This document shows positions 11,819 to 19,521 of a DNA stretch of 32,000 bases, piece after piece. The notes under the pieces were generated by a model, which searched no databases, was not told where the DNA came from, and saw only the letters and a program-made list of their open reading frames with translations. Source of the DNA: Candidatus Saccharimonadota bacterium. GTDB lineage: Archaea > Nanobdellota > Nanobdellia > Pacearchaeales > GW2011-AR1. Numbering within the stretch: the first letter of the stretch is position 1; every line of letters begins with the position of its first letter. Both the position numbers and the translations under genes were made by a program. The DNA lies in NCBI GenBank assembly GCA_049511795.1, contig JBEKXS010000002.1, positions 1 to 32,000 on the forward strand, read 5' to 3'.

Positions 11819-14302
11819 ATGCTGGTGAAAAAAAGAGGCGCTGATTCTAAAACAGAATTCGTGAAATGGTTTTCTGAATTAAACAAGAGCTCTGGCAAGG
11901 TTTCTGGCGGAAAGGGAGCGAACCTAGCAGAAATTTTCAATCTTCATGTTCCTGTTCCTCCTGGATTTATAATAACAGCGCAGGCATATGATTACTTCAT
12001 AAAAAAAGCTGGAATCGATGCAAAAATAAAATCTCTTCTTGAAAAAATAAATTATGAAGATACAAAAGAGCTTGACAAGATAACAAAGCAAATCAGGGAA
12101 ATGATAGAAAGTGCAAAATACACAGAAGAGATGAAGGAAGAAATTCTGGAAGCATATGAAATACTTGGAACAGAAGGAAAAGATGTAAAAGAAGGCGAAG
12201 CAAGCACTGTTTTGGCTTCTTCCCAAAAAAATGTTTTTGTTGCAGTAAGAAGCAGTGCAACAACAGAAGATTTGGCAGAGGCAAGTTTCGCAGGCCAGCA
12301 GGAAAGCTTCCTTAATGTGAAAGGAAAGGAAGAGCTTTTGACTTCGATAAAAAAATGTTTTGCTTCTCTTTTCACTCCGAGGGCAACATATTACAGGAAC
12401 AAAAAAGGATTTGGTAATGAAGGCGTTAGTCTTGCAGTTGTTATCCAAAGAATGATTAATTCAGAAAAATCAGGAGTTATTTTTACAAAGGATCCTTCAA
12501 TGAACCGTGATGGTGTTGTAATAGAAGCTGTATGGGGACTTGGAGAAGGAATTGTTTCTGGAAGAATCACGCCAGACAGATATCTTGTGAAAAATGAGAA
12601 AATAAAGGAAAAGGAAACAGCAGAAAAGAAAATCGCATTCATTAGGGATTCGGAAGGAAAGACAAAAATAATAAAACTTAAGGAAGAAAAATCAAAAGAA
12701 AATGTCCTGAAAGAGCATGAAACGATAAGGCTTGCAGATATAGCATTAAAGCTCGAAGCTCATTACAAAAAGCCTCAGGATATAGAATTCGCAATAGAAA
12801 ATGGCGAGATTTTTATTGTTCAAACAAGACCAATAACAACATTGGGAAAAACAGGGGGTTTAAAGGAAGGAAAAGAAATCAAAGGCCAGGTTGTTCTCAC
12901 AGGTCTTGCAGCTTCTCCAGGCATAGGCTCTGGAAAAGTAAAAATTGTTCACAAAATAGAAGATTTGGATAAAATCGAGAAAGGAGATATTCTTGTGACA
13001 GAAATGACAAATCCAGATATGGTTGTCACAATGCAGCGCTGTTCTGCTATTGTTACAGATGAAGGGGGAATAACAGCACATGCAGCAATTGTCTCAAGGG
13101 AAATGGGAATTCCTGCAGTTGTTGGAACAGAAGAAGCTACAAAAAAACTTGAAGAAGGTGAAATCATAACTGTTGATGGTTTCAATGGCAAAGTTTACAG
13201 GGGAAAAGTTTCTGAAACAGTGCAAAAAGAAATAAGGCCTGTTGTCCATAAAACAAAAACAAGAATAAAAGTTATCATCGACCTGCCAACATATGCAGAG
13301 CATGCTTCTAAAACAGGGTTGAAAGGAATTGGTCTTGCAAGAATTGAAGGAATAATTGCAGAATCTGGAAAACATCCCTACTATTTCTTGGAAAAAGGCA
13401 AAATGAAAGATTATGAGGAAATTATTTTCCGTGGAATTAAAAAGCTGGCGGAATATTTTGATGAGATATGGGTAAGAACTTCTGATATAAGAAGCGACGA
13501 GTTCCAGAACCTTGATGGTGCTCCTAAAAAAATCGAGGCAAATCCAATGCTTGGAATGCACGGCATCCGCTTCTCGCTAAAAAATCCTGAAATTCTCAAG
13601 GCAGAAATAAAAGCAATGAAGCGTGTTTCAGAGCATGACAAAGGAAAAACAATAGGTCTTATGTTCCCCCAAATTATATCTGTTGATGAAGTGAAAAAAG
13701 CAAAAGAAATTGTGAAAGAAGTTGGATTCCAAAAAGCAAAAATTGGGATTATGGTTGAAACTCCTGCAGCTGTCCAGGTAATAAATGAAATATGCGCAGA
13801 AAAAATTGATTTCATTTCTTTTGGTACAAATGACTTAACTCAGTTCACGCTTGCAATCGACCGTGGCAACGAACAGGTTCAGGATTTGTACAATGAAATG
13901 AACCCAGCTATTCTTCATCAGCTTGCAACTGTTATAAGAGCATGCAAAAGAAACAATGTTGAAACAAGCATCTGCGGGCAATCTGGCAGCAAAAAAGAAA
14001 TGGTTAAGTTTCTTGTTGAAAACGGTATTGACAGCATAAGTGTTAATTCAGATGTTGCAGCAGATATTGCAGAATATGTTTCCGAGCTTGAAAAGGTGGG
14101 GAACAAAAGCAGCAAAAGTGAGCACAGAAATTATGAGCCACTAGATGAGCGTCCGCCAAAGAAAATTGACAAAGAATTAAGGGAAGAAAAGCCTGTTTAT
14201 GAGGAAGATATATCAAAAGAAGATTTGCCTGTAATTCCAGGTACAGAAGCAGACAGTGTAAAAGATGGAATGGATCCTCTTGAAAGCAATGATGTGTTTT
14301 AG
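11819..14302 (+). CDS. ppsA: Phosphoenolpyruvate synthase (pyruvate, water dikinase)
   Basis: 827 aa.
- N-terminal ATP-grasp domain with GGKGANLAE.
- Swivelling phosphohistidine domain: TDEGGITAHAAIVSREMGIPAVVG.
- C-terminal PEP-utilising barrel: FISFGTNDLTQ.
- An acidic C-terminal extension of about 65 aa. Confidence 0.9.
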   Translation: MLVKKRGADSKTEFVKWFSELNKSSGKVSGGKGANLAEIFNLHVPVPPGFIITAQAYDYFIKKAGIDAKIKSLLEKINYEDTKELDKITKQIREMIESAKYTEEMKEEILEAYEILGTEGKDVKEGEASTVLASSQKNVFVAVRSSATTEDLAEASFAGQQESFLNVKGKEELLTSIKKCFASLFTPRATYYRNKKGFGNEGVSLAVVIQRMINSEKSGVIFTKDPSMNRDGVVIEAVWGLGEGIVSGRITPDRYLVKNEKIKEKETAEKKIAFIRDSEGKTKIIKLKEEKSKENVLKEHETIRLADIALKLEAHYKKPQDIEFAIENGEIFIVQTRPITTLGKTGGLKEGKEIKGQVVLTGLAASPGIGSGKVKIVHKIEDLDKIEKGDILVTEMTNPDMVVTMQRCSAIVTDEGGITAHAAIVSREMGIPAVVGTEEATKKLEEGEIITVDGFNGKVYRGKVSETVQKEIRPVVHKTKTRIKVIIDLPTYAEHASKTGLKGIGLARIEGIIAESGKHPYYFLEKGKMKDYEEIIFRGIKKLAEYFDEIWVRTSDIRSDEFQNLDGAPKKIEANPMLGMHGIRFSLKNPEILKAEIKAMKRVSEHDKGKTIGLMFPQIISVDEVKKAKEIVKEVGFQKAKIGIMVETPAAVQVINEICAEKIDFISFGTNDLTQFTLAIDRGNEQVQDLYNEMNPAILHQLATVIRACKRNNVETSICGQSGSKKEMVKFLVENGIDSISVNSDVAADIAEYVSELEKVGNKSSKSEHRNYEPLDERPPKKIDKELREEKPVYEEDISKEDLPVIPGTEADSVKDGMDPLESNDVF

Positions 14303-14351: not shown

Positions 14352-14981
14352 ATGGCTAAAAAGACTTTTTCTAAGATGAAAAAAGGGGTAAAGGCAAAAA
14401 GCATAAAGAAAAAACTAAACCCTGGAGCAAAATCAACAGAGGTAGTTTATCATTCAACAAAGGAAATAAAAGTTGAGAAAGCGCTTATTGACAATTTTAT
14501 AGGTCTGCAAAAAGTTATGGTTGGTCTTTCAACTAAATTTGATAGTCTTTCTGACCAGATATCAAAGCTCCTTGACCTTTTCGAGATTTCTGCAAAATCG
14601 CTTGCAAGAAAAGAGCTTTCATCTCCGGGAACTATAAATACTCAAGCAAACCAGGCAGATGCAAGAAGAATATTGGACAGGCTTGATAATATTTCAAAAC
14701 AGGCCGGACTGATTGGAAGAGGCCTTGCATTAATTCACGAAGTAGGAACAGAAAATGCAAATCCTGTAATTCCCTTAAATATTAACAAGAATAGATTAAA
14801 TCTAGGAACAATGCCAGCGATAAGCAAGCCTTTCCCAACAATGCCGAAGACAGACCAGTCAGTGCCTGCACCTTCAGATTCAGGTTCTGACCAAACGAAC
14901 TCGGCACCAGCAAAAAAAATGACAATGGAACTTGACAGTTTTGAAAAATCATCATCAAGAGACAGCAATAATGTGCCTTAG
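14352..14981 (+). CDS. Hypothetical protein: Lys-rich N-terminus, predicted coiled-coil segment, disordered S/P/N-rich C-terminus
   Basis: 209 aa. ..EKALIDNFIGLQKVMVGLSTKFDSLSDQISKLLDLFEISAKSLARKE.. shows heptad-like spacing. It is followed 3 nt later by the next ORF, so the two are probably co-transcribed. Confidence 0.55.
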   Translation: MAKKTFSKMKKGVKAKSIKKKLNPGAKSTEVVYHSTKEIKVEKALIDNFIGLQKVMVGLSTKFDSLSDQISKLLDLFEISAKSLARKELSSPGTINTQANQADARRILDRLDNISKQAGLIGRGLALIHEVGTENANPVIPLNINKNRLNLGTMPAISKPFPTMPKTDQSVPAPSDSGSDQTNSAPAKKMTMELDSFEKSSSRDSNNVP

Positions 14982-14984
14982 AAA

Positions 14985-15755
14985 ATGTTGGAGCAGACTT
15001 CAAATGATTTCAGGGAAAGATTTCTTCTAAAATTGACAAAAGAGATAATTGAAAATACAAATTATTACCGCGGATTCAAAGTTAATTTTGAAGCACAAAA
15101 CCTTTTCAGGGCAAAACAGGGAAATAAGGAAGACGAGAGAAAGATTTTGGGAATTTTGAACGCTCCAAAAACACTTGACATAGAAAGGCACAATCAAGCA
15201 ATGATTAAAAAGCAGAAAGAAGAAATCAAGGCAAGCATTAAGGACAAAATAAAAGATGAGTCTGAAAAACTTTCTGAGATGAAAAAAAGCAACCTTGCAG
15301 AAGAGCTCAGCTCTTTTTCAAGAAAATTCCAGAGGCCAATGTTTGTTCCATTTGGACAGCCAGGCTCTGTATTTCAAAGAAGATTCCAGCCATTAATGAT
15401 ACCTGAGCAGCCTCTTCCAGAAACAGTAAGCTATGTAAGACCAATTGCAACTTCTGAAGAAATAGATTTGGGAAGAGTAAATATTCTTATACATGACCCG
15501 TTAGTTAAAATTATAGAATGTGATGGTCCTAATGACAATGTTTATGTTATGGGCATTATGGGAAGAAAGAAAACCCCGATAAAGCTCAGCAAAGAGGAAA
15601 TAGAGCAGGTTGTAAAATCTTTTTCTGAGTCTGCAAAAATACCAAGCACAGAAGGCCTCTTCAAGGCAGCTGTGGGAAATCTCGTAATTTCAGCTGTTAT
15701 TTCAGACATAGCAGGAATACAGTTTATTATAAGAAAAATTGCCCCGGAATTCTAA
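14985..15755 (+). CDS. Protein resembling only the N-terminal (pre-Walker A) domain of archaeal FlaI/PilB-type secretion ATPases
   Basis: 256 aa. The C-terminal approximately 95 aa read LGRVNILIHDPLVKIIECDGPNDNVYVMGIMGRKKTPIKLSKEEIEQVVKSFSESAKIPSTEGLFKAAVGNLVISAVISDIAGIQFIIRKIAPEF. This follows the remembered FlaI pattern G.i.pLm.DP.iEDIsCDG....VYV.....g...Tni.f..eEeld.fi..la...gk.is...p..da.l......fTIRKF. The protein stops right after the IRK motif. There is no P-loop. Confidence 0.55.
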   Translation: MLEQTSNDFRERFLLKLTKEIIENTNYYRGFKVNFEAQNLFRAKQGNKEDERKILGILNAPKTLDIERHNQAMIKKQKEEIKASIKDKIKDESEKLSEMKKSNLAEELSSFSRKFQRPMFVPFGQPGSVFQRRFQPLMIPEQPLPETVSYVRPIATSEEIDLGRVNILIHDPLVKIIECDGPNDNVYVMGIMGRKKTPIKLSKEEIEQVVKSFSESAKIPSTEGLFKAAVGNLVISAVISDIAGIQFIIRKIAPEF

Positions 15756-17152
15756 TAATTATAATTTCCGTAAAGGCCACTAACATTCTGTGCAGAAGGA
15801 TTTTGCTGAGAAAGGCTTGCTGCAATGTCTTTAAGGAATTTTATTCTGTCTTCTCCCATTAATGAATTCAATGTTGCATTATCCAAATTAGAAGGATAAG
15901 AATTCTCAATCCAGTATGTTCCTATTTCATATCTTACAACAATGAATCCGTTTAATGCTTGTGCTTCTGTAACCTGCACAGAAATATTTCCAAATTCATT
16001 AATCAATGTATTTTTTTCAGCATCTGTCAATACAAGATTTTGAGTTATAATTGGTGTTGTATTTTCTTGAGGAATAATATTTGTCTCATTTGAAGTTGGT
16101 GTTTGTGGAGAAGTTCCTGTGACTCCTCCTTGGCTTAAGTCTGTATCTATTGAAACTATTTCCTGGCCATTGTATAATATTCCAACATGCATTGGTCCTT
16201 GCTGAAGAGATGAAAGATTCAGCTGATTAAGATTTATTGAAATATCTTTTGTATCTGTTCCTGTGAAATCGCTTCCAAAGCCTTGCTCTTGGGTTGAATA
16301 ACTTGATGTGACAGAAACAATGTTTCCATTTGTTGTTAAGCTGATTGTATTGTCTGGAAGTTGTTGGCCAGAATCAGTATGAACACTAGTTGGTTTTATT
16401 TCAGCTATTTCTCCAGGCTGTAATGTATATGTAAATGTCTGATTCCAAGAAACATTTCCTGTAACTTCATTTTGGAATTGAACAACAGCATGTCCTGTAG
16501 GAGTTAATCCCAGGAAGAAGTTTGCAACAACTCCAATCAAACCAGTTCCATTTGAATTATTATCTTGTGTTGTTAATGGACTGTTTTCTGCAGGCGTTGA
16601 ATTTTCAGTTGGAGTTGTGTTTTCTGTGCCTGAACTAGAAACTTCTGAACTGTTTGTTGAAGAAATTATTAAAGTAAATTGAATATCTGGATAAACAGTT
16701 TTTGTTCCAGCAAGACCAAAACCATCGCCAGAACCGCCTATATTTTGCCCATTAACAAAATAATTTCCCTGTGATGTTTGTTCAGAAACCAAGCTGCTTA
16801 AAGGATACTGATAAGTTTGCCCTCCATTCTCAAAAACAACATTTGAAGAAGCAGGTATAAGTTCACCTTGATTCAATGAAATTTTTAGTTGCCCATCAAG
16901 TGTTTTTCCTTCCTGATAATTTGCATTCAGGTTGAGTATTGCATGACCTGTTGAACTACCATGTCCTTGCCCAATAAGATATGCTCCAAAAATTATGACC
17001 AATGCAACAGGGATTATCCATGCAAACTTTCCCAAAGAAAGTTTTTTCTGACCCTGATATTCAGAAACAACTTTTCCGTCAACTCTTTTGCTTTGGTAAA
17101 GGTAAGGACCGTAAAGCTTGCCGTCTTTTTTTATGTACTTTTCATAAGCCAT
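15752..17152 (-). CDS. Type II membrane-anchored surface protein with T/P/N/E-rich linkers
   Basis: 466 aa.
- Cytoplasmic N-terminus: MAYEKYIKKDGKLYGPYLYQSKRVDGKVVSEYQGQKK.
- One TM segment: FAWIIPVALVIIFGAYLI.
- Large ectodomain with many sequons and linkers such as GTENTTPTENSTPAENSP.
- The stop codon overlaps the convergent stop of 14985..15755. Confidence 0.65.
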   Translation of the reverse strand: MAYEKYIKKDGKLYGPYLYQSKRVDGKVVSEYQGQKKLSLGKFAWIIPVALVIIFGAYLIGQGHGSSTGHAILNLNANYQEGKTLDGQLKISLNQGELIPASSNVVFENGGQTYQYPLSSLVSEQTSQGNYFVNGQNIGGSGDGFGLAGTKTVYPDIQFTLIISSTNSSEVSSSGTENTTPTENSTPAENSPLTTQDNNSNGTGLIGVVANFFLGLTPTGHAVVQFQNEVTGNVSWNQTFTYTLQPGEIAEIKPTSVHTDSGQQLPDNTISLTTNGNIVSVTSSYSTQEQGFGSDFTGTDTKDISINLNQLNLSSLQQGPMHVGILYNGQEIVSIDTDLSQGGVTGTSPQTPTSNETNIIPQENTTPIITQNLVLTDAEKNTLINEFGNISVQVTEAQALNGFIVVRYEIGTYWIENSYPSNLDNATLNSLMGEDRIKFLKDIAASLSQQNPSAQNVSGLYGNYNY

Positions 17153-17214
17153 TGTGTAGGGTAACTAACTTACAATAAGAAATTTAGAATATATTTAAAG
17201 GTTTCTCGGATTTT

Positions 17215-18312
17215 TTATTGCCCGCAGTTTGGGGCTCCCCAAATGTTATATCTTTCACTAGAACTTATATTTGCAAGAGTGTTACCAGAAGGAATATACA
17301 GACCTACTTCAGACATGTTAATATCAGGATAATAAAATGCAGAAGAAATCCCAAAGCAGTTCTGTTCATTAGAACCTGTAAAATTTACTGAATAAGTTGT
17401 ATAACCACTTAAATTGTCTTGATTTTTTGGAAGACTATCACTCTGAAATCTATTTGCACTTCTAGTTTGGGGCCATACTAAAGAAATTATTCCTGTATTT
17501 ATTGGGGGATTTAGATTACACCCGCCTGAACCATCTGCTGTGTATCCTTGAGGACATTGACAGTTAATCTGGCATTTGTATCCTCCATCACAAACTACAC
17601 CTGAATCTTCAGAGCCAGGAGTCCATGTTCCATTACATGAAGAAGGAATAGTACAGTCTACAGGGCAGTTACCTGGAGTTTCCCCTAATGATACCTCACA
17701 AATTCCATTTCCGCAAACAGCTCCACCAGGACCAGTACAATCTATAGGGCAATTTGAAGCAGTTTCTCCTGTTTCACAAATTCCATTTCCGCAAACAGCT
17801 CCACCACCAGTATTTCCACCTGTTCCGCCTGCAGGTGGTGTTCCGCTTATTGTTGCAGTGTCTGTTGGATTTCCGACTGTATTCTGTCCTGAAACAATAT
17901 AAATAGGCGCAACAGAAACGGTATCACCTGCGCTGATTCCAGGAATCTGTGAAGAAGTAAAAGTAAATGTTCTTGTATCCAATTCATTTATTGAAACATT
18001 TTCATCAACACTTACACTTTGTGTATTATTTATAAAAACAAATTTCATTCCGCCCAAAGTTCCTCCGCCTGCGCTTCTTCTTACAGTAACTAAAATGTTT
18101 GATCCAGAAACATATGCAGATTTTATCGCTATATCAAAAGTGAACTGATTAAGATTAACCTGTTTTGAGCCGCTTGAAATAATATTATTAACAACAACCC
18201 AAATAGCGCCTATAGCAACAAGTGCAAGAAGAATAAGAATTAAACTTGAAACAACTGTAGACAAACCAGAATTATTTTTTTTAAGATTAAAAATATTCCT
18301 CTTTTTACGCAT
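17215..18312 (-). CDS. Archaeal type IV pilin-like protein (class III signal peptide) with tandem Cys-rich CGNGICE modules
   Basis: 365 aa. The N-terminus MRKKRNIFNLKKNNSG/LSTVVSSLILILLALVAIGAIWVVV matches the archaeal pilin N-terminal pattern: a charged n-region, a small residue, then about 20 hydrophobic aa. Two tandem modules read AVCGNGICE(x4-6)GE(x3)NCP(I/V)DCT. A further Cys-rich segment follows (CNGTW..CDGGYKCQINCQCPQGY..GGC). Confidence 0.65.
   Translation of the reverse strand: MRKKRNIFNLKKNNSGLSTVVSSLILILLALVAIGAIWVVVNNIISSGSKQVNLNQFTFDIAIKSAYVSGSNILVTVRRSAGGGTLGGMKFVFINNTQSVSVDENVSINELDTRTFTFTSSQIPGISAGDTVSVAPIYIVSGQNTVGNPTDTATISGTPPAGGTGGNTGGGAVCGNGICETGETASNCPIDCTGPGGAVCGNGICEVSLGETPGNCPVDCTIPSSCNGTWTPGSEDSGVVCDGGYKCQINCQCPQGYTADGSGGCNLNPPINTGIISLVWPQTRSANRFQSDSLPKNQDNLSGYTTYSVNFTGSNEQNCFGISSAFYYPDINMSEVGLYIPSGNTLANISSSERYNIWGAPNCGQ
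17697..17806. repeat. Perfect 32-bp direct repeat (two copies, 78-bp period) inside the pilin-like gene
   Basis: cacaaattccatttccgcaaacagctccacca occurs at 17697-17728 and again at 17775-17806. On the minus strand it encodes the GGAVCGNGICE core of each 26-aa module. Confidence 0.9.
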
Positions 18313-18333
18313 TGCTAAAAAAAGACAAAGCTC

Positions 18334-18341
18334 TTTATAAA
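18334..18341 (-). promoter_or_regulatory. TTTATAAA box 29 nt upstream of the ATG at 18312
   Basis: Exact consensus box. Confidence 0.5.
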
Positions 18342-18353
18342 ATTACCGAACAT

Positions 18354-18674
18354 TTATGATGCTGGAGCTGTTGTTCCTGTTGTTGGGGCTGTCTGTGCTG
18401 CTGCGTTTTGCTGTTGTGCCTGTTGCAAACATTCAAGTGCTACCAAATGTATTGTCTGGTTTCCTACAGGCAAAGCGAAGGTCTGACATTGACCTACAGT
18501 GTTCACAATCTGGGAAAGCACATAATTTGCTCCCTGGACTGCGCCTTCATTCTGCTTCTGAACAGTGTATCCAGAAATTGCAGGCTGTATCACAAAGGCA
18601 TATATCATAACCAATGCCATAATGACAACAACTAAAGCAAGAACAGTTATCCAAATGCTTTTTGTATCTGCCAT
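18354..18674 (-). CDS. Small N-terminally anchored protein, possibly pilin-like
   Basis: The track ORF starts at a TTG (18677). The next codon is an ATG (18674), which sits 29 nt from a TTTTTAAA box, so I call 106 aa. The sequence begins MADTKS-IWITVLALVVVIMALVMIYAFVI. It continues as a short ectodomain with 2 Cys and ends in a Q/A/T-rich tail. Confidence 0.5.
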   Translation of the reverse strand: MADTKSIWITVLALVVVIMALVMIYAFVIQPAISGYTVQKQNEGAVQGANYVLSQIVNTVGQCQTFALPVGNQTIHLVALECLQQAQQQNAAAQTAPTTGTTAPAS

Positions 18675-18695
18675 CAATAGATTAAATAAAAGCTG

Positions 18696-18703
18696 TTTAA
18701 AAA
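18696..18703 (-). promoter_or_regulatory. TATA-like box (TTTTTAAA on the minus strand) 29 nt upstream of the ATG at 18674
   Basis: Spacing rule. It supports the ATG start rather than the TTG start. Confidence 0.45.
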
Positions 18704-18762
18704 ACTTATGTTGCTGTAACAGTTATAATCTTTAATAATAAAAATTAGTAAGTAAAAGTAGT

Positions 18763-19521
18763 CTAACTGTTCGTTGTTATCTCAACCATTGTTATTACAT
18801 CTCTCCAAGCAACATTTCCAGTGTTTGTTGCGACGACCGAAATAACATCGCCTGCCTGGAAATTAACAATTCCTTTTTCCTGAACATCATAGTCTTTCTT
18901 CATTCCAATTGCTGTTGCGTCTATTGTGTTGCCGAAACTTATTGGCTGCCCATTCTTGAGTATTACAATATTTATTTCTCCAGGATTTCCCTGAATGACT
19001 TCAAGGTTTGTTGATATTGCAGTTATGCTTCCGTCTCTAGGCATAACATATCCTTTTGAATCACTTGTCTGAACTCCTGCTCCTGTATTCAAAAATCCAG
19101 ATTGATTCATTATTCCACTGTATCCAAAGTCCAAGAAATTTCTCTTGTCGCTTGCAACAATCAAATCCCCTTGTGCCTTAAGCTGCTCAAGTGAATATGC
19201 GACGACATAAACCTGTTTGTTCTGGTTGTTTTGTGAATAATTTATCTGGTAAATTGCAAGATTATTGTCATTGACATTTTTTATATTGACTTCTTTTGGA
19301 AGAGAATTGAAATCAACCTGACCAACTCCTGTTATTGAATTCTGATCTATTCCTCTTTTAGATGCAAATTGTGCTACAAAGCCAGAAACCTGACTGCTAA
19401 GCTGTCCTATAACACTGCTGTTTGTCTGTGAGTTTACGTTTGTTGCTTCTGCAGAAATAACAAAAGCACCTATTGCAAGAACCAGCAAGACAACAATTAT
19501 TCCTAAAAATATTTTCCTCAT
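18763..19521 (-). CDS. Secreted hypothetical protein
   Basis: 252 aa. Sec-type signal MRKIFLGIIVVLLVLAIGAFVISAEA/T, followed by beta-rich sequence. Confidence 0.65.
   Translation of the reverse strand: MRKIFLGIIVVLLVLAIGAFVISAEATNVNSQTNSSVIGQLSSQVSGFVAQFASKRGIDQNSITGVGQVDFNSLPKEVNIKNVNDNNLAIYQINYSQNNQNKQVYVVAYSLEQLKAQGDLIVASDKRNFLDFGYSGIMNQSGFLNTGAGVQTSDSKGYVMPRDGSITAISTNLEVIQGNPGEINIVILKNGQPISFGNTIDATAIGMKKDYDVQEKGIVNFQAGDVISVVATNTGNVAWRDVITMVEITTNS

What the first reader, a model, noticed from the sequence alone, without database searches (positions are those of the whole stretch)
14985..15755. Stand-alone FlaI/PilB N-terminal domain lacking the ATPase core
The last approximately 95 residues track the N-terminal domain of archaeal secretion ATPases, including the DP..I.CDG...VYV block and the closing F.IRK motif. 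The ORF terminates 6 codons after that motif, where the Walker A domain would normally begin. Downstream DNA is occupied by a convergent gene whose stop overlaps this one, so there is no frameshifted remnant of an ATPase. Two explanations are possible. It may be a domesticated regulatory or adaptor domain, for example one competing for membrane or platform binding. Alternatively it may be an old truncation that remains intact as an ORF with a promoter-proximal partner gene.
Basis: partly seen in the sequence, partly recalled or inferred. Interest (0 to 1): 0.6.

Follow-up and report, generated by a model that had tools for sequence, protein, structure and literature searches.

The report
ATPase-less pilus-motor N-domain protein
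This gene encodes a conserved protein of tiny-genome (DPANN) archaea that is a stand-alone copy of the N-terminal domain of the type IV pilus/archaellum motor ATPase without the engine part, always encoded with a small coiled-coil partner, so it is a previously undescribed two-gene module and not a broken gene.

Summary
ORF 14985-15755 (+, 256 aa) ends 5 residues after an F-I-I-R-K motif. Residues ~158-254 are a true homologue of the N-terminal (N2) domain of FlaI/GspE/VirB11-type secretion ATPases:
- Foldseek top hits are FlaI and afGspE (E 4e-7, rmsd ~2 A).
- In VIA-align the top 13 chains are all this domain (Z 7.6-12.8).
- hhalign against the genome's own 514-aa ATPase family gives E 1.7e-6.

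There is no Walker A/RecA core and no remnant of one downstream.

It is not a decaying truncation:
- The family occurs in 114/121 genomes of the order, always short.
- It has 1,628 50%-identity representatives and dN/dS of 0.1-0.3.
- It has no Pfam or NCBIfam model.

New here: it is invariably preceded (median gap 2 nt) by a helical-hairpin protein (14352-14981). The pair is class-wide (partner in 275/401 genomes) and missing together in one family that keeps its ATPases. Relatives in other orders carry almost the whole ATPase N-domain. The first nucleotide-sensing arginine is lost (0/45).

Function is inferred. Most likely it is a non-catalytic accessory or regulator of the pilus motor acting by N-domain mimicry (~45%). 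Genomic linkage to pilus genes is weak (1 of 40 distant loci), so an unrelated co-opted role (~35%) stays open.

The parts
14352..14981 (+). Partner gene 'up209' (209 aa). It has a basic disordered N-terminus, a conserved helical hairpin of ~85 residues (NF..LQ.V...LFE.SAK...G...H) and a disordered P/Q-rich tail.
   Evidence: It lies directly upstream of the NTD-only gene in the 36 close ortholog loci, in 20/20 distant loci of the order and neighbouring orders and in 16-18/20 class-level loci. The median gap is 2 nt. AF2 models two helices, 36-90 and 98-130. It was found in 275/401 genomes of the class. No PDB, Pfam or Atlas relatives were found.
14985..15755 (+). The finding: a 256-aa ATPase-less protein carrying a secretion-ATPase N-domain.
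14985..15323 (+). Residues 1-113: a conserved N-terminal amphipathic helix (F13, L15 and Y28 nearly invariant) followed by long K/E-rich helices (coiled-coil-like). No detectable similarity to the ATPase.
   Evidence: AF2 helices 7-24, 26-55, 64-101 and 104-113. hhalign of this half against the ATPase gives E=0.68. Only generic coiled-coil structure matches, Z about 5. An N-terminal Phe is conserved class-wide.
15324..15455 (+). Residues 114-157: a low-confidence linker ending in the conserved IPE.LP.TVSY..P motif (L144, P145 and P153 invariant).
   Evidence: The motif aligns to the Y.L.RD..G helix that precedes the alpha/beta domain in class-level relatives and in the ATPases.
15456..15746 (+). 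Residues 158-254: an N2/PAS-like alpha-beta domain (H-EEE-H-EEE) homologous to the N-domain of FlaI/GspE/VirB11-type ATPases.
   Evidence: pLDDT 93-98. Supported by Foldseek, VIA-align, hhalign and BLASTP.
15723..15737 (+). The F247-I-I-R-K251 motif. It is the last strand of the N-domain, and the protein stops 5 residues later.
   Evidence: I249 and K251 are invariant and F247 nearly so. Most family members sampled end within a few residues of F.I[RK][RK].
15752..17152 (-). Convergent 466-aa anchored surface protein whose stop overlaps the ORF's stop. It is context and not part of the module.
   Evidence: It is present downstream in many but not all ortholog loci and absent in distant lineages.

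Best explanation
Shown: the gene encodes a conserved, selected, non-catalytic paralogue of the N-terminal domain of the archaeal type IV filament motor ATPase (the FlaI/GspE2-like, ~514-aa type). An unrelated N-terminal helical region is attached to it. It is co-transcribed, and probably translationally coupled, with a small helical-hairpin protein, and the two form one inherited unit. Inferred: the two proteins form a stoichiometric cytoplasmic complex through their helical parts. The N-domain copy docks onto the pilus motor by mimicry. It would bind either the surface of the ATPase C-terminal domain that normally packs against a neighbouring subunit's N-domain, or whatever the ATPase N-domain crown contacts (platform protein or membrane). 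In that way it would regulate or scaffold assembly of the hexameric motor without hydrolysing ATP. Because the first nucleotide-sensing arginine is lost, it cannot replace a catalytic N-domain. It would act as a modulator or adaptor, in the manner of a truncated 'microprotein' paralogue.
For: Homology and fold. Relatives in other orders match the ATPase HMM over positions ~8/29-220 with E down to 5e-35, and a class-level profile hits full-length ATPase N-domains at E down to 5e-20. In the tree the family groups with the ~513-aa FlaI-like ATPases and not the ~750-aa type. Selection and conservation: 114/121 genomes of the order, 1,628 representatives, dN/dS 0.11-0.30. Partner: adjacency in nearly every locus sampled, median gap 2 nt. 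The pair is absent together in family f25, where 0/40 genomes have up209 and no short NTD frames appear. Non-catalytic: no P-loop; ATPase R210 and R229 are invariant in 21/21 ATPases, but the family has 0/45 R at the first site and 34/45 at the second. Link to pili: in G014 the pair heads a same-strand array of ATPase, platform and pilin-like genes. In the window's own family it abuts a cluster of pilin-like and surface genes. The N2D-to-CTD packing interface and the arginine sensors of this ATPase family are described in PMC5424180. A recent census argues that ATPase N-terminal regions are the docking sites for accessory proteins (PMC13705601).
Against: No interaction was tested. Only 1 of 40 distant loci places the module next to pilus genes, and that arrangement is not conserved even in its own family. 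Families f25 and most of f9 keep both ATPases without the module, so it is not an obligate motor subunit. Adjacency to surface genes in the window's family may be inherited synteny, because the whole PEPS...pyrH region is collinear. The ATPase is present in 120/121 genomes of the order, so co-occurrence says nothing. The weak FlaC_arch match of the partner (3/14 members, best E 0.004) is typical of coiled-coil noise.
Confidence: 0.45

Rival explanations
1. The module descends from the pilus ATPase N-domain but has left the pilus system. In this reading the PAS-like domain plus coiled coil serves as a protein-interaction scaffold or sensor in some other core process of these reduced cells, such as envelope or division organisation, or regulation of a housekeeping enzyme.
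For: It is an independent transcription unit in 39/40 distant loci, with varying housekeeping neighbours: a PEP-synthase-like gene in this order, a thermosome-like gene in two lineages (L073 and L075), and tRNA synthetases. It is lost in f25 and most of f9 without loss of the ATPases. It evolves about 5-10 times faster than the ATPase N-domain, and ATPase-specific residues are eroding.
Against: No alternative partner or process recurs in the neighbourhoods. Fold-defining motifs specific to the archaeal ATPase N-domain are retained (D171, G181, F247, I249, K251). The G014 operon links it to the pilus system.
Confidence: 0.35
2. Split ATPase: the protein supplies an N-domain in trans to a C-terminal-domain-only ATPase encoded elsewhere, rebuilding a working motor.
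For: The protein ends exactly at the N-domain boundary. N-domain and C-domain of neighbouring subunits normally form a packing unit (PMC5424180).
Against: The genome has only two T2SSE-type ATPases and both carry their own N-domain. The first nucleotide-sensing arginine is lost in 45/45 members. No longer or fused relatives were found.
Confidence: 0.05
3. A neutral relic: an old truncated duplicate of the ATPase gene that happens to remain open.
For: It is ATPase-less and evolves faster than the ATPase.
Against: Intact short frames in 114/121 genomes of the order and across the class. 1,523 representatives at E<=1e-10. dN/dS 0.06-0.21 in the domain. Invariant residues. A conserved partner.
Confidence: 0.02

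Closest known systems
N-terminal domain of archaeal secretion ATPases: FlaI/ArlI (PDB 4II7, 4IHQ) and A. fulgidus GspE (2OAP)
   Same: Same alpha-beta fold (rmsd ~2 A over ~95-100 residues, 23-26% identity). It shares the D-P..(I/V)-E..-G and F.IRK motifs, and the C-terminal boundary matches the end of the N-domain.
   Different: No linker or RecA-like C-terminal domain, so no Walker A/B, Asp box or His box. The first nucleotide-sensing arginine is replaced by V/I. The part N-terminal to the domain is an unrelated coiled-coil region. It is encoded with a dedicated partner and away from the platform and pilin genes.
N-domains of VirB11/HP0525, CpaF/TadA, PilB/PilT, GspE/EpsE and DotB
   Same: Same superfamily fold, Z 7.6-12.8.
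   Different: Only 8-15% identity, and the same absences as above. In all solved examples the domain is covalently joined to the ATPase core.
Stand-alone or re-used T2SSE_N/MshEN (N1) domains of bacterial PilB/MshE-type ATPases (own knowledge: c-di-GMP-binding modules, Pfam PF05157)
   Same: A precedent that an N-terminal module of a secretion ATPase can exist apart from the ATPase core and act as a regulator.
   Different: A different domain (N1 helical module, not the N2 alpha-beta domain). No PF05157 match here at E<=1. Bacterial, and not paired with a coiled-coil partner.
Coiled-coil motor accessories of archaeal type IV filament machines: FlaX/ArlX, FlaC/D/E (ArlCDE), halobacterial arCOG07564
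   Same: Cytoplasmic coiled-coil proteins that scaffold or regulate the FlaI-type ATPase (PMC5019145 abstract; PMC4858521). The partner up209 is a coiled-coil or hairpin protein with a weak FlaC_arch hit.
   Different: No significant homology. None of these contains an ATPase N-domain copy. up209 has no transmembrane segment.
HP1451, the inhibitor that binds the N-domain side of the VirB11 ATPase HP0525 (PDB 2PT7)
   Same: An example of a small non-catalytic protein regulating this ATPase family through the N-domain face (entry title listed).
   Different: Unrelated fold and origin. It is not a paralogue of the ATPase.

Membership tests
T2SSE / VirB11-PilT-FlaI secretion ATPase family (Pfam PF00437) | N-terminal N2 (PAS-like alpha-beta) domain ending in F.IRK | tested here: met
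   Foldseek E 4e-7; VIA Z up to 12.8; hhalign E 1.7e-6.
T2SSE / VirB11-PilT-FlaI secretion ATPase family (Pfam PF00437) | RecA-like C-terminal domain with Walker A (G..G.GKT), atypical Walker B, Asp box and His box | tested here: not met
   The protein ends 5 residues after F.IRK and has no GKT motif. There is no ATPase-like sequence in the window.
T2SSE / VirB11-PilT-FlaI secretion ATPase family (Pfam PF00437) | Scores above the Pfam gathering threshold | tested here: not met
   No PF00437 hit at E<=1. The genome's true ATPases score 115 and 48-50 bits.
T2SSE / VirB11-PilT-FlaI secretion ATPase family (Pfam PF00437) | Two N-domain arginines that sense the nucleotide of the neighbouring subunit (PilB R271/R286; R210/R229 here) | tested here: not met
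   ATPases have R at both sites in 21/21. The family has 0/45 R at the first site (V/I) and 34/45 at the second.
FlaI/ArlI archaellum motor ATPase (NCBIfam NF058587, equivalog) | Full-length match above the curated cut-off (550 bits) | tested here: not met
   19 bits, E 4.6e-4, model positions 101-208 only.
PilB3_N (Pfam PF23990) and T2SSE_N (PF05157) N-terminal modules | Match to the Pfam model | tested here: not met
   No hit at E<=1 for the window protein, nor at E<=0.1 for relatives from other orders. PF23990 was only an Atlas lead.
The family defined here: up209-linked stand-alone N-domain proteins of Nanobdellota | Short protein (about 150-410 aa) ending within a few residues of F.I[RK][RK] | tested here: met
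   Window protein. Family.
The family defined here: up209-linked stand-alone N-domain proteins of Nanobdellota | Immediately preceded on the same strand by an up209-type helical-hairpin gene | tested here: met
   3-nt gap in the window. Median gap 2 nt over 37 loci.

The most novel reading that the evidence does not exclude
An ancient two-protein module, found across this class of DPANN archaea, consists of a 'pseudo-ATPase' (the motor's N-domain without its engine) and a coiled-coil partner. It would be a new kind of regulator or structural adaptor of the type IV filament motor. For example, it could cap or sequester ATPase protomers, or couple the motor to the host-contact apparatus on which these episymbionts depend. 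That would make it the first truncated-paralogue ('microprotein'-type) regulator described for any secretion ATPase.
Probability: 0.3. Interest if true: 0.75.

Novelty: new variant of a known kind. Interest (0 to 1): 0.6.

Why it matters
Type IV filament motors are studied as ATPase hexamers whose N-domains dock accessory proteins. A widespread, selected protein that consists of that N-domain alone was not described in the papers I could search, and it has no Pfam or NCBIfam model. It is a core gene in 0.5-0.9 Mb genomes that have discarded most non-essential functions, and it always comes with one specific partner, so it probably matters to the cell. If it modulates the pilus motor, it gives a handle on how uncultivated DPANN archaea control the appendages thought to mediate host attachment. 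It would also be a natural example of regulation by a catalytically dead, truncated paralogue. If it has left the pilus system, it documents exaptation of an ATPase sub-domain into a new complex. In either case, two large families of 'hypothetical proteins' can now be annotated.

Tried and rejected
- Pfam scan of the ORF and its neighbours gave nothing meaningful.
- Single-sequence PDB search gave only noise.
- A search for longer or fused relatives of residues 140-256 found none. This is weak evidence by the tool's own caveat.
- The search for related loci with the 45-sequence alignment failed for lack of a conserved stretch. With the single protein it found nothing. A 12-sequence alignment gave 7 named loci.
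- The partner up209 gave nothing informative: no PDB profile hit, only coiled-coil noise in Pfam plus a weak FlaC_arch lead, no relatives in the Atlas, and an AF2 model of two helices. I did not run a fold search on it because helical hairpins match non-specifically.
- I considered an ESCRT-III-like reading of up209 (basic N-terminus, hairpin, C-terminal PLPEF.F motif). I dropped it for lack of any supporting hit.
- Co-occurrence with the ATPase is uninformative, because the ATPase is in 120/121 genomes.
- The G014 operon arrangement was checked in its family and is not conserved.
- The idea that the linker motif TVSY..P derives from the ATPase's Y.V.EP.L motif was rejected. It aligns with the Y.L.RD..G helix instead.
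- Literature searches found no description of a stand-alone N-domain.

Full report
**Observation.** The window is from a 530-kb, 3-contig, 92.5%-complete archaeal genome. It carries an archaeal-type ThrRS editing domain. Close relatives are labelled Nanoarchaeota, Pacearchaeota or Woesearchaeota MAGs, plus SAG AAA011-D5, so I infer from those names that it is probably Pacearchaeales. ORF 14985..15755 (+) encodes 256 aa. It starts 3 nt after the stop of a 209-aa ORF (14352..14981, called 'up209' here). Its stop overlaps by 4 nt the stop of a convergent 466-aa gene. It contains HDPLVKIIECDG..NVYV and ends F247-I-I-R-K251 plus five residues. A PF00437 search of the whole genome finds two full-length ATPases on another contig (514 aa and 760 aa) and nothing in the window. 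There is therefore no ATPase remnant downstream.

**Is the similarity real?**
- Pfam finds nothing. NCBIfam's FlaI model matches residues 116-222 to model positions 101-208 at E=4.6e-4.
- A profile of 45 homologues (A1) searched against PDB sequences returns FlaI (4II7/4IHQ) and A. fulgidus GspE (2OAP) as the three best hits, at their N-domains (E 0.055-0.2).
- BLASTP against the genome's own 514-aa ATPase aligns residues 160-253 to 131-232 (26% identity, E=0.002) and ends at F.IRK in both.
- A profile-profile comparison of the trimmed domain with a 21-sequence alignment of that ATPase from related genomes gives probability 90% and E=1.7e-6 over 93 columns. The N-terminal half shows nothing (E=0.68).
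- AlphaFold2 models residues 163-251 as H-EEE-H-EEE at pLDDT 93-98.
- The top 8 Foldseek hits are FlaI and afGspE chains (E 4e-7 to 4e-6, 98-101 columns, rmsd 1.8-2.3 A, 23-26% identity). CpaF, VirB11, HP0525, PilB, PilT and GspE follow.
- An exhaustive VIA-align scan of 48,161 chains puts 13 N-domains of this ATPase superfamily on top (Z 7.6-12.8). It then drops to generic coiled coils at Z<=5.7, and those match only residues 1-120. The ESM Atlas structure search also lands on T2SSE proteins.

**Not a relic.**
- The word-indexed search found 78 homologues of 153-264 aa, all unnamed or 'hypothetical'.
- The exhaustive profile search found 1,628 50%-identity representatives (1,523 at E<=1e-10). 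The best 150 are all 178-321 aa.
- In 121 genomes of the same order, 114 have it (61 of 62 high-quality ones), in frames of about 170-320 aa. The same profile also hits the ~510-545-aa ATPase frames weakly in more than 25 genomes, always at profile positions ~135-195.
- No longer or fused form was found.
- Nei-Gojobori dN/dS is 0.11-0.30 for the whole protein and 0.06-0.21 for the domain. The least saturated pairs give 0.18 (dS 0.85) and 0.24 (dS 0.78).

**The partner and the range of the module.**
- In 36 ortholog loci the order PEP-synthase-like gene, then up209, then this gene is essentially constant. The convergent surface and pilin-like genes downstream vary.
- In 20 loci from distant families of the order and from other orders, synteny with the PEP-synthase-like gene is lost, yet up209 still directly precedes the short N-domain gene in all 20.
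- In 20 further loci from other families of the class, a complete short N-domain gene follows up209 in 16, with partial hits in 2 more. The gap has a median of 2 nt, and 30 of 37 loci lie within -10 to +30 nt.
- A profile of up209 finds it in 275 of 401 genomes of the class, usually once per genome.
- Family f25 has no up209 (0/40). There the class-level N-domain profile hits essentially only full-length ATPase frames and no stand-alone genes, although 39/40 genomes keep both ATPase types.
- Four of five genomes of family f9 also lack the module but keep their ATPases. The two genes are thus present together and absent together.
- up209 is predicted as two long helices with disordered basic and P/Q-rich tails. 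It has no recognisable relatives.

**Origin.**
- Members from other orders (270-411 aa) match the ATPase HMM over positions ~8/29-220, with E down to 5e-35. That is nearly the whole N-terminal region of the ATPase, preceded by an extra helical segment of about 100 residues.
- One such protein reaches full-length FlaI-annotated ATPases (PF00437 + PF23990) by single-sequence search.
- The window's subfamily aligns to them at E=1.2e-14, but only over the last ~110 columns. In this order the first half of the N-domain has therefore been replaced or has decayed into the coiled-coil and linker region.
- In a maximum-likelihood tree of the domain (85 rows, 122 columns), the stand-alone proteins sit with the ~513-aa FlaI-like ATPases and not the ~750-aa type. 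All 50 fall on one side of a branch in the best tree (support 73), and 47 form a group at SH-aLRT 89. Their branches are several-fold longer than the ATPases'. One ancient truncation is the simplest reading, but it is not proven.

**What it can and cannot do.** It has no P-loop. PMC5424180 describes the N2 domain packing against the neighbouring subunit's C-domain (~1,600 A2), with two N2 arginines that sense the bound nucleotide. The equivalents in the ATPase here, R210 and R229, are invariant in 21/21 ATPases. The window's subfamily has V/I at the first site (0/45 R) and R in 34/45 at the second. Class-level relatives keep R/K in 14/20 and 13/20. Fold-defining residues are kept (D171, G181, F247, I249, K251). 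It therefore cannot act as the catalytic-cycle N-domain of an ATPase, but it may still use N-domain surfaces for binding.

**Mechanism (inferred).** I favour a stoichiometric complex of the two proteins that docks on the type IV filament motor by N-domain mimicry and modulates or scaffolds it (about 45%).
- For: specific descent from the pilus ATPase; one genome (G014) where the pair heads a same-strand array of ATPase, platform, a membrane protein and two pilin-like genes; and the pilin-like and surface gene cluster next to it in this window.
- Against: that linkage is 1 of 40 distant loci and is not conserved in its own family; the module can be lost while the ATPases stay; and adjacency in the window may be inherited synteny.
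- The main rival (about 35%) is that the module has been co-opted to an unrelated process.
- A split ATPase is disfavoured because no N-domain-less core exists in the genome and the first arginine is lost. A neutral relic is refuted.

**Novelty.** No Pfam or NCBIfam model covers either protein. Two censuses of archaeal type IV filament systems do not mention a stand-alone N-domain in the passages and sections I searched (PMC4858521 and PMC13705601). The 2026 census treats DPANN systems as sparse remnants. The domain itself is well known. What is new is its stand-alone, partner-linked, class-wide form.

**Limits.** Genome samples are draws from larger groups, and related genomes are not independent. 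ORF starts in other genomes were taken as the first start codon of the frame. An earlier first-reader note on this window (e1-2754417) read 14352-19521 as one surface-appendage locus. My synteny analysis shows that only the first two genes form a conserved unit.

Noticed in passing
L060 (G014:C6:54000-66000), 1087-7278, minus strand: In one distant genome the up209 and N-domain pair lies directly upstream of, and on the same strand as, a 524-aa ATPase, a 435-aa platform protein, a 279-aa membrane protein and two pilin-like genes. This is the only case in 40 distant loci, and it is not conserved in that family.
   Followed up: yes
A4 alignment: L060, L063, L064, L069, L072, L075 and others: Distant up209 homologues often end in a conserved C-terminal PLPEF.F peptide after a disordered linker. 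The window's subfamily lacks it and has a Y.KS..S motif near the end. It may be a short docking motif.
   Followed up: no
L002:286-2568 (G000 contig 1); also L106-L111: A second, ~745-770-aa T2SSE-type ATPase with a long N-terminal extension, followed by a platform-like membrane protein. It is conserved across the class, including family f25. Its function is unknown.
   Followed up: partly
class-level genome sample, families f25 and f9: Family f25 (0/40) and 4 of 5 genomes of f9 lack both up209 and the stand-alone N-domain protein while keeping both ATPase types. These lineages are natural 'knock-outs' that could be compared for what else differs.
   Followed up: partly
window 11819-14302 (+): An 827-aa PEP-synthase-like gene with an acidic, disordered tail of about 65 residues lies immediately upstream of the module throughout the order but not beyond it. 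This is probably inherited synteny.
   Followed up: partly
window 17215-18312 (-): A 365-aa protein with a weak archaeal pilin-type N-terminus (TIGR02537, E 0.005) and duplicated CGNGICE...NCP.DC cysteine modules. Orthologues are present in only some related loci.
   Followed up: no
L073 2010-3611 and L075 2170-3771: In two genomes from other orders the module lies next to a 533-aa gene that looks like a thermosome (group II chaperonin), judging only from its N-terminal sequence.
   Followed up: no
L001:315-995 and 2794-3654 (G000 contig 1): The genome's 514-aa FlaI-like ATPase is flanked by a 226-aa pilin-like gene upstream and a platform-like membrane protein downstream. This is a compact pilus locus far from the window.
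   Followed up: partly
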